Positions 2,163 through 33,237 of a DNA stretch of 63,973 nucleotides are shown here, in pieces. The notes under the pieces were generated by a model that was not told where the DNA came from, did no database searches, and saw only the letters and a list, made by a program, of their open reading frames with translations. The DNA is from Candidatus Latescibacterota bacterium (GTDB taxonomy: Bacteria > Latescibacterota > UBA2968 > UBA8231): the NCBI GenBank assembly GCA_965205655.1, contig CBDBIJ010000137.1:1-63973 (forward strand). The letters are read 5' to 3'. Position numbers and translations under genes: made by a program. How positions within the stretch are numbered: the stretch's first letter is position 1; every line of letters starts with the position of its first letter.

Positions 2163-2189
2163 TAAGCTGGTGTTGCGTGACGCCGATAA
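2163..2189 (+). promoter_or_regulatory. sigma28 (FliA)-type promoter
   Basis: TAAG-N15-GCCGATAA upstream of fliG; the established consensus is TAAA-N15-GCCGATAA. Confidence 0.75.
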
Positions 2190-2197
2190 CCTAGATA

Positions 2198-2238
2198 GCC
2201 GCACTTCCCCGGCGGGCGGATGCGGCGTTTTTTGTTTT
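2198..2238 (+). terminator. terminator/attenuator-like hairpin in fliG leader
   Basis: GCCGCA...TGCGGC stem followed by GTTTTTTGTTTT. Confidence 0.45.
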
Positions 2239-2260
2239 AAGTCGGGAGATCAGCTGGCGG

Positions 2261-9627: not shown

Positions 9628-9843
9628 ATGGCACAACGGAACCGTAAGCGCACACCGGCGGAAATTCGCGCAGATCGACTTCGTACGGGCAGGCCTCCAA
9701 AACCGGCACGTGACAAGCTGTCCGAGAAGGTTATGGTTTACCTGACAAAAGCTGAACGCGCCAAACTGCAGGCCCAGGCGCAAGAAGAGGGTATGACACT
9801 GGCAGCGTTGATTATGAGCCCGTGGCGCCAGAAGGGAGCGTGA
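9628..9843 (+). CDS. small basic ribbon-helix-helix-like DNA-binding protein
   Basis: GRPPK...KVMVYLTKAERAKLQAQAQEEGMTLAALI pattern; directly upstream of the integrase. Confidence 0.6.
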   Translation: MAQRNRKRTPAEIRADRLRTGRPPKPARDKLSEKVMVYLTKAERAKLQAQAQEEGMTLAALIMSPWRQKGA

Positions 9844-9846
9844 CAG

Positions 9847-11169
9847 ATGGCTGGAGTCAAAAAGAAACCTACCAAGGGCGGGATGTATCAGGCCTGGTTT
9901 ACCGACTACACGGGACAGCGGCGGTACTTCACGACCACAACCAGAACCGAAGCAAAGCGCGAAGCCAAGCGACTTGAGGCTGAGCATCGCCTGGTTCGAC
10001 AGGGCATTCGTCCCGCGCCCTCGTCAGCCGACAAGCATGCGAGGCGACCTTTCGAGGAGGTGATGCAGGAATACCTCGCTTGGGGTGAGGCACAGGGGGG
10101 GCGCGGTGGTAGAGCGTGGGGGAAGACTCACGCGCGCATGCGCCGTACTCACCTGGCGTGGTGGCAGGACCGTCTGGGTCTGAAATTCCAGGCCGATCTG
10201 CATCGCATTCTTCCGCGAGTCGAAAAGGAGTTACAATCACTGCAGCAACGCGGGCGGGCGGGCAAGACCATGGCCAATTATGCGGAGGCGATAGGAGCTT
10301 TCTGTGATTGGTGCGTCCAGCGTGGGTATCTCGCCGAGGATCCCTTGAAAGCCATGGTCCAATTTGACGCCACCCCTCGAACTCACCGTCGTGCCATGAC
10401 GGCGGACGAGATTGCTCGGCTTCTCGAGGCTTGTCCCCCTCATCGGCGGCTGCTCTACGAAACAGCATTCGCGACGGGACTGCGGGCAAACGAACTCCGC
10501 AGCCTGAGGGTAGAACACCTGGATGTAGAGCACGGCGGGTTGCATCTCGACGCGGCGTGGACAAAGAACCGGAAAGCCGGCGTCCAGCCCGTGCCCGAAG
10601 GTCTGGTGGCACGGTTGGCGGCCTCTGCCGATTCTGGCGAGGCCGCTCGTCTCTATCAACGATTCAGCCGCAAAAAAGCCACGGCTCAAGCGCCCGTGGA
10701 TCCCCTTCTCTATGTGCCCTCTCACACTGCCCGGGCTTTGGACAAGGATCTCAAGGCGGCAGGGATTCCGAAGCAAAGTCCGGGTGGCAAAATCGACTTC
10801 CACGCTTGCCGTGTGGCCTATATCAACCTCGTGATTCAAAGTGGAGTCACCGTCAAGGAGGCTCAGGAACTGGCCCGACACGCTTCGCCAGAGCTTACGA
10901 TGAACACCTACGGTCGGGTACAGAAAGAGCGACTGGCCAAGGCGGTGGAGCACGTAGGCCATGCGATATTGCAGCCAAAAAGAGTACCAGTGGAGTACCG
11001 GCGGGTCGTCGGGTCAGAACATGGAAACGCAACCCACGTAGATACAATGGGTTGCGCTGATGAAAATTGGTGGAGGCGGCGGGAGTCGAACCCGCGTCCG
11101 GAAACGGTCCGCTGCGATCCCTACGTGCGTAGTCAGTCAATTGATCTCGCCCCCTCCGGCTCCGACTGA
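9847..11169 (+). CDS. tyrosine recombinase/integrase
   Basis: Catalytic set R (TGLRANEL), K (TKNRK), HxxR (FHACR), H (ARH), Y (NTYG); abuts and overlaps the tmRNA 3' end. Confidence 0.93.
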   Translation: MAGVKKKPTKGGMYQAWFTDYTGQRRYFTTTTRTEAKREAKRLEAEHRLVRQGIRPAPSSADKHARRPFEEVMQEYLAWGEAQGGRGGRAWGKTHARMRRTHLAWWQDRLGLKFQADLHRILPRVEKELQSLQQRGRAGKTMANYAEAIGAFCDWCVQRGYLAEDPLKAMVQFDATPRTHRRAMTADEIARLLEACPPHRRLLYETAFATGLRANELRSLRVEHLDVEHGGLHLDAAWTKNRKAGVQPVPEGLVARLAASADSGEAARLYQRFSRKKATAQAPVDPLLYVPSHTARALDKDLKAAGIPKQSPGGKIDFHACRVAYINLVIQSGVTVKEAQELARHASPELTMNTYGRVQKERLAKAVEHVGHAILQPKRVPVEYRRVVGSEHGNATHVDTMGCADENWWRRRESNPRPETVRCDPYVRSQSIDLAPSGSD

Positions 11170-11426
11170 CAGGATCCGCAAAGGACCAGTTCATAAGATT
11201 CGCCACACGCCCTTGAACGGGAGCGTGCAGCTAGCCTGCTCAAGTCGACACCGAGTGCAGCAGCGCAGGCTCCGCCGCACCCGATGGGCCGCTTAGGTTG
11301 CCCTATGCAGCCAGCGCGTACGAGTTATCGTTGGCGTTTGAAATTGTTCCCGATGATTAACGAGGGTTCGGGACCTCGGCACGCGATCATCAGCCTCTCC
11401 ATCCCCGTCGAAGCCATTGCGCCCCC
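11068..11426 (-). ncRNA. ssrA: tmRNA; tag peptide (A)ANDNSYALAA at 11335-11303
   Basis: 5' GGGGGCG pairs with 3' CGCCTCC-ACCA including the G3-U wobble; T arm GCGGGTTCGACTCCCGC; tag ORF ends YALAA*; 359 nt. Confidence 0.97.
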
Positions 11427-29835: not shown

Positions 29836-30927
29836 ATGCTGGCGCCCGTGCTGCCACTCATCGTCGACCGACTCGGAATCGGACTCGCGTCCGCCGCCTT
29901 TTTCGGCACCGCCTTTTCGCTGGCCAACCTGACGCAGCCGCTGCTGGGACTATGGGCCGACCGCCAGGCACGCCGCTGGCTCGTTCCGGCGGGCCTGGCG
30001 TTGACGGCTTTGTCCATGCCGCTGTTGGGAATCGCCTCCGGCTACTGGTCTCTCGTCTTGATTGTCACGGCCTGTGGTCTCGGCGTCGCCGCATTCCATC
30101 CGCAGGTCGCCTCCCTCGTCGGTGACTTGAGCGGCGCTCGCCGTTCCTTCGGCATTTCCATCTTCATCTTCGGGGGGACGCTCGGACTGGGTACCACCCC
30201 GTTCTGGATTCCCGCCTTCGCCGAGGAGATCGGACTGGGGCTGCTGCCGCTGATGACCGCGCCGGGGCTCGTCCTCTGCGCGGTGCTGCTGCGCTTCGTG
30301 CCTCTGAACAACCCCCACCACTCGAGCCGCATTGGCATGACGTTCAGGGCAAGTTTCGACGGGAGAGGATGGGCCCTTGCCTACCTCGCTTTCGTCGTAA
30401 CCCTGCGGTCGATCAGCACGTTCGGCATCGGCTACTTCCTCACCCTACTCTACAGGGACAGGGGCTTTGGACTCGTAGAGGGAGCCGTTCCCCTCGGCAT
30501 CTACAATATCTCCGGCGTTGTGGGCGGCCTCATTCTCGGCTACTGTGCCGACCGGGTGAACCCCAAACCACTTGTCTGGGGATCCATTCTACTCTCCGGT
30601 CCGGCCCTGTTCGGTTTTCTTCACACGGACGGTGTGACCAGCTACGTCCTGCTCGCGCTCGGCGGCGCCCTCCTCATCGGGTCCAATCCGCTCACCGTCG
30701 CCATGGCTCAGGAGATCGCCCCGAAGAACGCCGCCCTCGCTTCCGCCCTTCCTCTCGGGTTCAGTTGGGGAATCGCCGGACTCATCCTCTTGCCCATCGG
30801 GTATGTCGCGGACCGCATAGGACTCCCCAACACCCTGACCTATCTCGCCATTCTGCCGCTGCTGACCGGCCTGCTCGCTCTGCGATTGCCTTCCCCCACG
30901 CCACGCCGTCCTGAGCCGCTGACATAA
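29836..30927 (+). CDS. MFS transporter (Fsr-like); frame is open upstream to about 29773
   Basis: HFLVDSY just upstream in frame; QPLLGLWADR, AAFHP; multiple TM helices. Confidence 0.88.
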   Translation: MLAPVLPLIVDRLGIGLASAAFFGTAFSLANLTQPLLGLWADRQARRWLVPAGLALTALSMPLLGIASGYWSLVLIVTACGLGVAAFHPQVASLVGDLSGARRSFGISIFIFGGTLGLGTTPFWIPAFAEEIGLGLLPLMTAPGLVLCAVLLRFVPLNNPHHSSRIGMTFRASFDGRGWALAYLAFVVTLRSISTFGIGYFLTLLYRDRGFGLVEGAVPLGIYNISGVVGGLILGYCADRVNPKPLVWGSILLSGPALFGFLHTDGVTSYVLLALGGALLIGSNPLTVAMAQEIAPKNAALASALPLGFSWGIAGLILLPIGYVADRIGLPNTLTYLAILPLLTGLLALRLPSPTPRRPEPLT

Positions 30928-30972
30928 AAAAAACCCCCTGCCGTAGGCCGTTGCCGGACTACAGGCGGGGGG
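30926..30972 (-). terminator. intrinsic terminator
   Basis: CCCCCCGCCTGTAGTCCG-GCAA-CGGCCTACGGCAGGGGG followed by T8. Confidence 0.85.
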
Positions 30973-31040
30973 CTGCCCTAAGGAGGATTAGGAGGTTTTG
31001 CAAGCTCGGTACGGATCAGCGTGTTCCGCGCCGAGCCTAT
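30926..31040 (-). ncRNA. candidate sigma28-dependent sRNA with two anti-SD CCUCCU motifs
   Basis: Own promoter, 5' hairpin, single-stranded AAAACCUCCUAAUCCUCCUU, terminator with U8. Confidence 0.6.
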
Positions 31041-31046
31041 CTATAG

Positions 31047-31073
31047 TTTTCGGCACGCCGGAGCCGAGGTTGA
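31047..31073 (-). promoter_or_regulatory. sigma28-type promoter
   Basis: TCAA-N15-GCCGAAAA. Confidence 0.6.
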
Positions 31074-31098
31074 GATAATTGTGCTCCGAGTTCATAAC

Positions 31099-33237
31099 TT
31101 ACTGATTTTTCATGTATTTACGCAACAGAGATTCATAGATCTTGACGAAGTCCTCGCGGCCGTTGCTGCGGTTGTAGAAGTAGCAGAACGGATTCGGATT
31201 CAGCTCGAGAATCGAGAGCCCATCCTGCCCGCCGATCAGATCGACGGCGTAGAAGCCCAGATCGATGACTCGAGCGATCCTGCACGTCAGCTCCGCCATG
31301 GCCTCGAGCAGGTCGGGATCCTCGACTCTGACCGCCCGCCCCGAGGACTCGTGCAGGGGATTCGGATCCTCGACGGTTCCCTCGACCCGGTCGCTCTGTT
31401 TTTCGTAGGCCAGCAACAGGTCGGCCTGACTGGCCACCGCTCTGAACTCCCGACCGGCCACGAAGGTCTGTGCGAGCACGGTGTTGTCGACGAATCCGCT
31501 GTTCTCGAACAGGGACTGGAGTCGGGACTTCACCGCACTTCCGCTGCGCTCGACGTAGACCCCCTGCGACACGGAGCTGCGGTACTTCTTGATGAGAATG
31601 GGATACTCCATGTGACGATCGACATCTTCGACGATCTCGTCGACCGTGCGATGGCGTTTGTAGCGGTTGAAGCGATCGTCGGCATAGGGATTGAAAACCT
31701 GCATCGTGAACGGCACCGGCAGTCCCTCGCGGGCGAACAGTTCGTACTGGTAGCCCTTGTCCTCGGCCAGCCGCGCCGCCACGTAATCGTTGAACGGATG
31801 CTTGTTGCGCAGGAAATAGACGTGACTGCGGCCGGACCTCACCTTGAGAACATTGTCGTTCTCGGACACCCGTTCGCATTCCACCTGGGCCCGATCGCAC
31901 GCTTTCTCGACGCATGCCAGTGACTCGAGGGCGACATCCTCGCTGATCCCCTCCCGCTGGAAGGGCAACCCGAAATACTCTCGCGCCCTGGCCACCAGCG
32001 CCAGTGAGCCGGTGACGCATATATGGTCCGTTGACGTGGCGCACTCTGATGTGGCGGACTCTGATGTGGCGCACTCTAGTGTAGCGACGAAAGCCTGCTC
32101 ACACGAGGCGAACGTCGTCGTCGCGATGCCGCGGGGAGCGACCTGCTCCAGATGATGCGGTTCCATCGCCTTCGGATGATCGGAGCTGGTGAGTGCAAGA
32201 TTTCGTGCCAGCGGGCGCAGAGCCTCGAGGATACCGGCCGCGTCGTGCCCGCCGTTCACGCCGATGATGAATGTCCACCTGTTCGCGATCGCTCGCAGAT
32301 CCTCGGCCAGGGCGTGCGCCGCCGCCGGATTGTGGGCGCCGTCCAGAATGACGCATGGCTCGCGGCTCGCGTGCTCGAAGCGTCCCGGCCACTGGCAGCT
32401 CTCGACGATATCCCGGGCTACATCGATCGCCAGCCGGTCCCCGAAAAGATGCTGCGCCGTCCTCAGCGCGAGCTGGGCGTTCTCGACAAACGTGCAGGCG
32501 ACGTTTGTGCCGCGCGGCCGCGGCGACCATTGGCTTTGGGTTGGATCGGCGACGTGAAGCGGTATGCCCAGCGATTCACAGCGACTGCGCACATACGCCA
32601 GCACTTCGGCCGGCTGCCCGGACGTTGTGAAAAGCGGCCTGCCGCGGCGCCCGATGGCCAGCTTTTCCTCGGCGATGCCGATCAGGTCTTCGCCGAGCGC
32701 TTCGGTGTGATCGAGACCGATCGATGTCAGCACGGCCAGCTCCGAATCCCAGGCGTTCGTGGCGTCGTAGGTGCCACCGAGGCCAACCTCGAAGACGGCG
32801 CACTCCACCTCTGCCTCGGCGAACAGAAGCGCGGCCAGGGCGGTGAGGGCTTCGAATTTCGAGAATGGACCGTACCCCTCGTTTTCGAAGCCGCGGCTGC
32901 AGTCGAACAGGTGCGTGATCCCCTGCGCCCAGTGGTCCTTGCTGAGACTGTGCCCTCCCACCTGAATGCGCTCCCGCAGCGAGTGCAGGTGGGGCGATGT
33001 GTAGAGGCCGGTGCAGAATCCGGCTCCCAGCGCCAACCCCGCGAGCAGACTGCTCACCGTTCCCTTGCCGTTCGTGCCGCCGACTACAACCGACCGAAAC
33101 CGGCGCTGCGGATCGCCGAGTCTTCGCAGCAGGGCCTGCATCCGGGGCAGGTAGTCGTCGAGTGGGCCCGCATGCGGTCGGCCGCTTTCCCAGTCGGGAA
33201 GCGTGTCGAGGAATTGCCTGGCTCGCATGTAGTCCAT
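31099..33237 (-). CDS. folC: FolC-like Mur-family ligase fused to a C-terminal RimK-like ATP-grasp domain
   Basis: GTNGKG, TSPHL, EVGLGG, DATN, WPGR, LDGAHNP; then EDK, YPILIK, REFR, AVDL, LELNPNP. Confidence 0.85.
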   Translation of the reverse strand: MDYMRARQFLDTLPDWESGRPHAGPLDDYLPRMQALLRRLGDPQRRFRSVVVGGTNGKGTVSSLLAGLALGAGFCTGLYTSPHLHSLRERIQVGGHSLSKDHWAQGITHLFDCSRGFENEGYGPFSKFEALTALAALLFAEAEVECAVFEVGLGGTYDATNAWDSELAVLTSIGLDHTEALGEDLIGIAEEKLAIGRRGRPLFTTSGQPAEVLAYVRSRCESLGIPLHVADPTQSQWSPRPRGTNVACTFVENAQLALRTAQHLFGDRLAIDVARDIVESCQWPGRFEHASREPCVILDGAHNPAAAHALAEDLRAIANRWTFIIGVNGGHDAAGILEALRPLARNLALTSSDHPKAMEPHHLEQVAPRGIATTTFASCEQAFVATLECATSESATSECATSTDHICVTGSLALVARAREYFGLPFQREGISEDVALESLACVEKACDRAQVECERVSENDNVLKVRSGRSHVYFLRNKHPFNDYVAARLAEDKGYQYELFAREGLPVPFTMQVFNPYADDRFNRYKRHRTVDEIVEDVDRHMEYPILIKKYRSSVSQGVYVERSGSAVKSRLQSLFENSGFVDNTVLAQTFVAGREFRAVASQADLLLAYEKQSDRVEGTVEDPNPLHESSGRAVRVEDPDLLEAMAELTCRIARVIDLGFYAVDLIGGQDGLSILELNPNPFCYFYNRSNGREDFVKIYESLLRKYMKNQ
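32036..32080. repeat. 3 x 15-bp in-frame tandem repeat
   Basis: GTGGCGCACTCTGAT / GTGGCGGACTCTGAT / GTGGCGCACTCTAGT, encoding LECAT-SESAT-SECAT. Confidence 0.85.

What the first reader, a model, noticed from the sequence alone, without database searches (positions are those of the whole stretch)
30926..31073. Candidate sigma28-dependent small RNA with tandem anti-Shine-Dalgarno seed
Seen: the 170-bp gap between the convergent MFS and folC-fusion genes holds, on the minus strand, a complete transcription unit with no ORF. It has TCAA-N15-GCCGAAAA, then a 5' hairpin (AGGCUCGG..GCGGA/UCCGU..CCGAGCUU), an unpaired linker AAAACCUCCUAAUCCUCCUUAG with two CCUCCU motifs, and a GC stem with a GCAA loop plus U8 (about 115 nt). 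The TAGATAG after the -10 box is shared with the fliG sigma28 promoter at 2163-2198. Known: anti-SD seeds occur in AbcR and cuckoo sRNAs, and sigma28 sRNAs regulate flagellar timing in enterics. Inference: a flagellar-regulon translational repressor I cannot assign to any family.
Basis: partly seen in the sequence, partly recalled or inferred. Interest (0 to 1): 0.8.

Follow-up and report, generated by a model that had tools for sequence, protein, structure and literature searches.

The report
Flagellar small RNA of Latescibacterota
A conserved, three-hairpin non-coding gene in flagellated members of an uncultured bacterial family is likely switched on by the flagellar sigma factor and is predicted to dampen translation of two small flagella-linked genes by pairing over their ribosome-binding sites.

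Summary
A real, conserved non-coding gene with no Rfam match. Homologues occur in 17 of 132 class genomes, all in one Latescibacterota family. All 17 keep a CT[CA]AA-N15-GCCGA[TA] promoter, a variable 5' hairpin, a central hairpin and a terminator. Sixteen carry fliA; the seventeenth has decayed flagellar genes.

No hfq was found in 5 of 5 genomes searched.

Comparative search gives two predicted targets. One is a sigma28-promoter, fliA-linked DUF5610 gene (RBS pairing in the top 1% in 9 of 14 genomes, poor in 2). The other is a Gln-rich 112-aa gene whose leader pairs with both motifs in this genome and two other genera. A shorter paralogous sigma28 RNA matches the DUF5610 leader where this RNA is missing.

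Transcription and pairing are untested (no RNA run listed), and target ranks depend on the method. Verdict: a new family of a known kind. The scan earlier noted analogous sigma28 anti-SD RNAs in spirochaetes, but not this sequence.

The parts
31070..31074 (-). sigma28-type -35 element CTCAA
   Evidence: CT[CA]AA in 17 of 17 homologues with a variable 15-nt spacer; like the sites before two flagellins and two fliG paralogues of this genome
31047..31054 (-). sigma28-type -10 element GCCGAAAA (GCCGAT in the other 16 genomes)
30926..31040 (-). predicted small RNA, about 115 nt (start inferred from the promoter)
   Evidence: fold z = -4.45; model R1 scores it 89.7 bits, by construction; no conserved ORF on either strand
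31001..31039 (-). P1, 5' hairpin; sequence and length vary, structure kept
   Evidence: 6 of 6 modelled pairs show two-sided changes in the fitted alignment A3
30990..30998 (-). upstream motif AAACCUCCU; its last three bases form part of the P2 stem
   Evidence: CCUCCU intact in 8 of 17 genomes; predicted to pair with the SD of the Gln-rich gene
30976..30993 (-). P2, conserved hairpin UCCUAA-UCCUCC-UUAGGG; anti-SD loop at 30987-30982
   Evidence: exact in 9 genomes; variants keep the stem by G-U and two-sided changes, 98.4% of cells paired
30926..30974 (-). P3, intrinsic terminator (GC stem, GCAA loop, U8)
   Evidence: kept in homologues with two-sided changes; missed by the simple scan
29836..30927 (+). 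convergent MFS transporter gene (neighbour in some homologous loci only)
   Evidence: Pfam MFS_1
31099..33237 (-). FolC/Mur-ligase plus ATP-grasp fusion; syntenic upstream anchor, often with a cystathionine gamma-synthase-like gene in between

Best explanation
This is a conserved three-hairpin non-coding gene, likely transcribed by sigma28 (FliA) late in flagellar assembly, whose central hairpin loop copies the anti-Shine-Dalgarno sequence and is predicted to repress translation of a few mRNAs by pairing over their ribosome-binding sites. Shown: conservation of promoter, three hairpins and seed; co-occurrence with fliA; no conserved ORF. Inferred: the UCCUCC loop first pairs with a GGAGGA, the weak 6-bp stem then opens, and pairing extends either through the 3' strand (UUAGGG with CCCCAA or CCCUCAA just upstream of the SD of the DUF5610 gene, 12-16 bp) or through the 5' motif (ACCUCCU with the SD of the Gln-rich 112-aa gene while the loop holds a second site upstream, up to 20 bp here). 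The stem bases would thus be conserved because they give target specificity, and pairing would not need Hfq. Because the DUF5610 gene also has a sigma28-type promoter, the RNA would form an incoherent feed-forward loop that caps this late flagella-linked protein. Odds by step: real sigma28 RNA gene about 0.9; acts by base pairing about 0.7; DUF5610 a target about 0.55; Gln-rich gene a target about 0.45.
For: 17 of 132 class genomes carry it: 9 by exact core, 5 more by model R1, 3 more by synteny. For 16 of them the promoter was not needed to find the RNA, yet 17 of 17 have it; 20 of 22 metagenome loci have it, one being cut short and one a variant. 16 of 35 fliA+ against 1 of 41 fliA- genomes of the family (kin are not independent). 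The exception, G027, has a broken fliA, broken flagellins and a split DUF5610 gene. 0 of 16 syntenic regions of fliA- genomes hold it. G-U pairs in P2 favour the minus strand. DUF5610 was the only gene group with AAGGAGGAT before its start in 3 or more carrier genomes among 60 of 69 sites fetched. It then proved to lie in 41 of 132 genomes, 39 of them fliA+, with a sigma28-type -10 box in 22 of 26 leaders printed. Its RBS ranks in the top 1% for pairing in 9 of 14 genomes (median percentile 0.0065; best of 59 control gene groups 0.078), including 4 of the 9 genomes not used to find it. In 12 fliA+ genomes without this RNA the percentile is 0.03-0.37. With the cost of opening P2 included it stays within the best 6 of 120 in 9 of 14. 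The tandem site AGGAGGATT-N0-12-AGGAGG occurs twice in this 4-Mb genome: opposite the RNA itself and in the leader of the Gln-rich gene. That leader beats all 120 random leaders in G000, G013 and G019.
Against: No transcript data. Any strong SD pairs with an anti-SD loop, and DUF5610 genes have strong SDs also where the RNA is absent (G014 percentile 0.029). The CCCCAA extension is found in genera that may form one clade, so shared descent could explain it; no tree was built. DUF5610 pairing fails in G097 and G012 (0.375, 0.671) and is modest in G008 and G021. The apparent compensatory match in G004 vanishes once the RNA's own fold is counted (108 of 120). Three carriers (G016, G003, G028) have no DUF5610 hit, and the Gln-rich gene was found in only 8 of 17 carriers; in G127 it does not pair (110 of 120). 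Ranks depend on the method: with a 38-nt fragment that exposes the terminator's C-run, DUF5610 falls to 225 of 818 in this genome, and 18 of 734 strong-SD leaders do as well. All backgrounds are this genome's leaders from a home-made gene caller. 19 of 35 fliA+ family genomes show no copy. The two-sided changes in P2 come from two genomes and may be one event. The RNA model search scored only 29 candidates per genome and missed three true members, so absences are soft.
Confidence: 0.62

Rival explanations
1. The RNA pairs with the same GGA-containing sites but acts mainly as a competitor of CsrA on shared leaders (or as a sponge for GGA-rich RNAs), so its net effect could be relief of CsrA repression rather than repression.
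For: csrA sits in the flagellar cluster of 3 of 5 genomes searched. The Gln-rich gene's leader has an upstream CAAGGA site plus the SD in 15 of 16 orthologues printed, the layout of CsrA targets (recalled; the consensus term appears in the listings). The short paralogue's seed ACAUCCUUG is the exact complement of CAAGGAUGU.
Against: For this RNA the predicted duplexes cover the SD itself, which blocks ribosomes whether or not CsrA is displaced. csrA was not found in this 84%-complete assembly (its flgL contig ends where csrA would follow).
Confidence: 0.15
2. The RNA is a broad, low-specificity dampener of any mRNA with an exposed strong SD, or a ligand for a protein that reads the C-rich loop; the two predicted targets are coincidences.
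For: The loop with its two 3' bases matches the CCUCCUU of this genome's 16S tail. Dozens of leaders pair about as well in single-genome ranking.
Against: DUF5610 recurs across genera and belongs to the same regulon. Where this RNA is missing, the paralogue matches a different site in the same leader with 11 contiguous pairs (5 of 5 genus g15 genomes, top 0.1%).
Confidence: 0.14
3. It is only the 3' UTR and terminator of the upstream folC-fusion operon, or a cis-antisense RNA to the convergent MFS gene.
For: It always lies downstream of the folC-fusion operon on the same strand; here its U-run overlaps the MFS stop codon.
Against: The folC fusion is in 123 of 132 genomes, yet this element was found only with flagellar genes. 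It has its own promoter. The downstream neighbour varies (MFS, RraA-like, others).
Confidence: 0.06
4. It encodes a small peptide, or is the antitoxin of an antisense small ORF read from the AAGGAGG on the plus strand.
For: The plus strand has a perfect SD followed here by a 26-codon TTG frame.
Against: An antisense start after that SD exists in only 5 of 17 genomes and the peptides are unrelated; sense ORFs are not conserved either.
Confidence: 0.03

Closest known systems
CJnc170/FlmR and CJnc230/FlmE of Campylobacter jejuni (PMC11187230; 12 passages read)
   Same: CJnc170 is an unprocessed, non-coding FliA-dependent RNA with a paralogue. CJnc230 has a conserved anti-SD stretch between two stem-loops and represses translation of flagellar-cascade mRNAs.
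   Different: CJnc170 is 47 nt and is suggested to act on class II structural genes. CJnc230 is RpoN-dependent, processed from flgE, and its seed is single-stranded. Here the seed is a hairpin loop in a 115-nt RNA, and the predicted targets are unknown accessory genes. Sequence similarity was not tested directly.
E. coli sigma28-dependent sRNAs UhpU, MotR, FliX, FlgO (PMC10578931; abstract and outline only)
   Same: sigma28 control; regulation by base pairing
   Different: Those are UTR-derived (Hfq is among the paper's keywords). This one has its own promoter and terminator, and no hfq was found in 5 of 5 genomes searched.
Cuckoo RNA family, RSs0680/CcsR (PMC4615179; 9 passages read)
   Same: anti-SD sequence presented in a hairpin loop; variable stems with compensatory changes
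   Different: Cuckoo has 2-4 hairpins, each with CCUCCUCCC, occurs in Alphaproteobacteria and is under RpoH control. Here there is one UCCUCC loop with a sequence-conserved stem and a sigma28 promoter; no Rfam hit.
C-rich-loop sRNAs such as RsaE/RoxS and AbcR1/2 (recalled; not read)
   Same: C-rich or anti-SD loop seeds that occlude ribosome-binding sites
   Different: No Rfam match at gathering score or at E up to 10; other phyla and other regulons.

Membership tests
Cuckoo RNA family | 2-4 adjacent hairpins, each with loop CCUCCUCCC | tested here: not met
   one hairpin with loop UCCUCC; definition
Cuckoo RNA family | Rfam model match; alphaproteobacterial host | tested here: not met
   no hit; relatives are labelled Latescibacterota or Gemmatimonadetes MAGs
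AbcR and other Rfam sRNA families | covariance-model score at or above gathering | tested here: not met
   best hit rdlD 21.9 bits against 50 needed, on the terminator only; 7 further loci gave nothing near threshold
C. jejuni CJnc170/FlmR type | stand-alone FliA-type promoter and co-occurrence with fliA | tested here: met
   (sequence level only)
C. jejuni CJnc170/FlmR type | 47-nt length; class II flagellar structural genes as suggested targets | tested here: not met
   homologues are about 90-120 nt; no conserved strong pairing among 59 flagellar-cluster gene groups
C. jejuni CJnc170/FlmR type | sequence homology to CJnc170 | not tested
   sequence not fetched
E. coli sigma28 sRNAs (UhpU, MotR, FliX, FlgO) | UTR-derived, Hfq-associated | tested here: not met
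   own promoter and terminator; no hfq in 5 of 5 genomes, two of them single-contig
Trans-acting base-pairing sRNA (general kind) | own promoter and terminator, no conserved ORF, conserved exposed seed | tested here: met
Trans-acting base-pairing sRNA (general kind) | conserved complementarity to a target in trans | tested here: inconclusive
   DUF5610 in the top 1% in 9 of 14 genomes, fails in 2, method-sensitive
Trans-acting base-pairing sRNA (general kind) | discrete transcript and demonstrated regulation | not testable with these tools
   no RNA holder listed
CsrB/RsmZ-type CsrA decoy | several GGA motifs in loops of the transcribed strand (recalled) | tested here: not met
   GGAGGA lies on the opposite strand; promoter, U-run and G-U pairs fix the minus strand

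The most novel reading that the evidence does not exclude
A pair of paralogous, Hfq-free sigma28 RNAs forms a co-evolving circuit with CsrA. Their seeds are complements of CsrA sites, and they contend with CsrA for the leaders of two unknown flagella-linked proteins (DUF5610 and a Gln-rich protein, possibly flagellar export substrates). The target site moves within the DUF5610 leader according to which paralogue a lineage keeps. The circuit would expose an unrecognised late-flagellar module and give DUF5610, a family also found in Proteobacteria, its first functional handle.
Probability: 0.2. Interest if true: 0.72.

Novelty: new member of a known kind. Interest (0 to 1): 0.5.

Why it matters
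It extends sigma28-controlled RNA regulation, described in E. coli and Campylobacter, to an uncultured phylum for which my one search found no small-RNA study. It supplies a testable pairing model in which a hairpin's stem bases would give specificity to an otherwise promiscuous anti-SD loop without Hfq. It ties DUF5610, which had no hit in the paper library, to the flagellar regulon by promoter and by distribution. Every step can be tested with reporters in a laboratory strain.

Tried and rejected
Rfam: only tmRNA in the window; weak terminator hits. No second copy of this RNA in the genome by blastn or nhmmer. RNA runs: no RNA holder listed; the DNA contigs laid cover the locus but cannot show expression. 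Dropped as chance matches without promoter or terminator: G108; two genome-contig hits in Paenibacillus and Aquificaceae; one viral hit; model hits in G026, G099, G063, G044, G055, G061 and G161, which look like plain terminators or noise. A loose promoter-plus-CCTCC pattern matched 76 of 132 genomes and was uninformative, as was a one-mismatch pattern for the paralogue apart from its exact hits. Single-genome duplex ranking is dominated by G-rich leaders. The PilZ/YcgR-like gene (10-11 bp at its RBS, top 2.4%) did not recur among the fetched sites, and its orthologues were not searched. Flagellins pair through only 7 bp; the core used omits the first bases of the upstream motif and may underrate them. 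The G004 'compensatory insertion' was rejected after cofolding. I first judged the tandem site of the Gln-rich gene unconserved; cofolding showed a looser two-site form in G013 and G019. No family or structure was found for the Gln-rich protein; no solved relative for DUF5610. No structure-aware aligner or IntaRNA was available; alignment A3 is fitted to the model, and 15 of its 31 rows were retrieved by the exact core. Alignment A4 of the paralogue was too poor to model. Eight paper searches found no description of this RNA; supplements were not read, and most subscription papers are outside the library.

Full report
Observation. The window is contig C137 of genome G000; relatives are labelled Latescibacterota or Gemmatimonadetes MAGs. 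The 171-bp gap between an MFS gene and a FolC/ATP-grasp fusion holds on the minus strand CTCAA-N15-GCCGAAAA, a 5' hairpin, a C-rich segment and a GC terminator with U8. The 117-nt strand folds at -55 kcal/mol, z = -4.45. Rfam has no match, and the genome has no second copy.

Family. A DNA search of 61 genomes hit the core in relatives. The 16-base core with one mismatch matched 10 of 132 class genomes; 9 are exact and have promoter and terminator, and G108 was dropped as the antisense of an ordinary RBS. A model built from the RNA part alone hit 19 of 132 genomes. I kept 14, set aside G025 and two extra G008 hits as a paralogue, and dropped 4. Scanning 48 regions downstream of the folC fusion (32 fliA+, 16 fliA-; 8 of the latter only about 1.5 kb long) added G003, G012 and the divergent G004, and nothing in fliA- genomes. 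Total: 17 genomes in 9 genera, all in family f1. A phylum sample of 151 genomes added no member. The exact core occurs in 10 places in the GTDB contigs, 8 of them members, and in 22 metagenome loci, 20 with the promoter pattern.

Sigma28 link. All 17 have CT[CA]AA-N15-GCCGA[TA] with a variable spacer. Similar sites precede two flagellins, two fliG paralogues and a MinD-like gene in this genome. fliA is found in 50 of 132 class genomes and 35 of 76 family genomes; the RNA is in 16 of those 35 and in 1 of the other 41. Within genus g13 it is in 2 of 4 fliA+ and 0 of 27 fliA- genomes. The exception, G027, has fliA in pieces, flagellins with stops and a split DUF5610 gene, and its P2 has drifted. 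This genome's own fliA has a 1-base frameshift that is present in the near-identical low-depth run X1 and absent from X3 and X4, so it is strain-specific or an error.

Structure. In the fitted 31-row alignment, 95.4% of cells pair and 13 of 20 pairs change on both sides, above all 500 shuffles and all slid controls. This alignment leans towards the model, and 15 rows carry the core by construction. P1 and P3 vary freely in sequence. P2 is almost fixed; its variants keep the stem through G-U pairs, or through two two-sided changes in G003 and G016. The loop is predicted open in 28 of 31 rows. The upstream CCUCCU is intact in 8 of 17 genomes, and no ORF is conserved on either strand. The loop region matches the CCUCCUU of this genome's 16S tail. 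hfq was not found in 5 of 5 genomes, csrA in 3 of 5, flgM in 5 of 5.

Targets. Single-genome ranking is noisy, so I asked which genes keep AAGGAGGAT before their start across carriers. Among 60 of 69 sites from 10 carrier genomes, only the DUF5610 gene recurred in three or more (G013, G127, G128, G033, plus G000); it was not among the 30 of 44 sites fetched from 5 non-carriers. That gene lies in 41 of 132 genomes, 39 of them fliA+, and shows a sigma28-type -10 box in 22 of 26 leaders printed. Its RBS context, CCCCAAGGAGG or CCCUCAAGGAGG, pairs with loop plus 3' stem strand; in this genome only 2 of 259 leaders with AAGGA have such a C-run in front. Against 3704 leaders of this genome it ranks in the top 1% in 9 of 14 carriers, 2.5-6.5% in 3, and poorly in G097 and G012; the best of 59 control groups from flagellar clusters had a median of 7.8%. 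Twelve fliA+ non-carriers rank at 2.9-37%; G126, whose contig ends before the syntenic site, ranks at the top. With full-length cofolding it is within the best 6 of 120 random leaders in 9 of 14, and G004 fails. With a fragment that exposes the terminator's C-run it drops to 225 of 818 in this genome, so the rank is method-sensitive.

The second candidate is a 112-aa Gln/Glu/Arg-rich gene (G000:C127:12219-12557, minus), found in 18 of 76 family genomes, nearly all fliA+. Its leader holds the only other tandem site in the genome. Cofolding gives 20 bp here and two-site duplexes in G013 and G019, each better than 120 of 120 random leaders; G128 and G033 are moderate and G127 fails. amrB is only about top 5%.

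Paralogue. A shorter RNA of about 70-90 nt has the same promoter, a GGAC/GUCC hairpin, the seed AUCCUUGGGG or AUCUUCUUGGGG and a similar terminator. It occurs in 14 of the 21 genomes matched (one match was this family, six lacked the architecture), in four copies each in G008 and G021, and once in this genome (C60). It pairs with the DUF5610 leader through 11 contiguous pairs in 5 of 5 g15 genomes tested, at a site upstream of the SD, and ranks in the top 2% in G004 and in 3 of 4 g13 genomes, but not in G029 or G000 (12 scored). The g15 genomes lack the long RNA by my searches, and g13 is where the long RNA pairs poorly with the RBS. The site thus appears to follow whichever paralogue is kept. 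This is the best argument against mere shared descent, though it is post hoc.

Mechanism. Most likely sigma28 makes the RNA late in assembly; the loop seeds on a GGAGGA, the stem opens, and the duplex covers the SD of the DUF5610 and Gln-rich mRNAs without Hfq. Conservation and co-occurrence are shown; transcription, pairing and the sign of regulation are inferred. The main rivals are competition with CsrA at the same sites and broad non-specific dampening.

Known kinds. It works like C. jejuni FlmR/FlmE (passages read) and like anti-SD loop RNAs such as cuckoo (passages read), but fails their defining features. It differs from the UTR-derived E. coli sigma28 RNAs (abstract only). Eight paper searches found no description of it. 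The scan has no look-alike by sequence but has noted analogous sigma28 anti-SD RNAs in spirochaetes and in one other uncultured group; I did not test these. Verdict: a real, undescribed family of a known kind, with unusually concrete target predictions. Interest 0.5.

Noticed in passing
G000:C60 about 9640-9740 minus (L433); L370-L391, L059, L063: Short paralogous sigma28 RNA family (seed AUCCUUGGGG or AUCUUCUUGGGG), in at least 15 genomes, four copies each in G008 and G021, often convergent with an HD-domain-like gene near serS; no Rfam hit.
   Followed up: partly
window 2163-2240 (+): The sigma28-type promoter before the orphan fliG is followed at once by a GCCGCA/TGCGGC hairpin and a T-run: a possible attenuator or a tiny sigma28 RNA of about 45 nt.
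   Followed up: no
G000:C23:14434-15104 (L001, break near 1916): fliA has a 1-base frameshift in this assembly and in run X1, but not in X3 and X4.
   Followed up: yes
G000:C42:45992-46516 minus (L101): DUF5610 gene has a sigma28-type promoter and tracks fliA (39 of 41 genomes); here its frame runs about 80 residues longer than in relatives, perhaps through a lost stop.
   Followed up: partly
G000:C127:12219-12557 minus (L099): Unannotated Gln/Glu/Arg-rich protein family ending in G-x-G-x-x-V-D-T, between folB and purD, nearly confined to flagellated genomes; sigma70-like promoter and a two-site CAAGGA leader that looks like a CsrA target.
   Followed up: partly
G027 (L050, L091, L096, L392): A genome in the course of losing flagella: broken fliA, flagellins and DUF5610, with drifted P2 in the RNA.
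   Followed up: partly
G000 contigs C9, C42, C66, C76, C133: Six scattered flagellin-like genes; the C76 flagellin has its SD in the loop of a perfect hairpin, as expected of a CsrA site.
   Followed up: no
G000:C97 near 478 minus; C29 near 93279 minus; C79 near 11513 plus: sigma28-type promoters precede a DksA/TraR-like gene, a MerR-HTH plus receiver gene and a MinD/FlhG-like gene.
   Followed up: no
window 9847-11169 and 11068-11426: An integrase-like gene ends inside the 3' end of the tmRNA gene, suggesting an integrated element.
   Followed up: no
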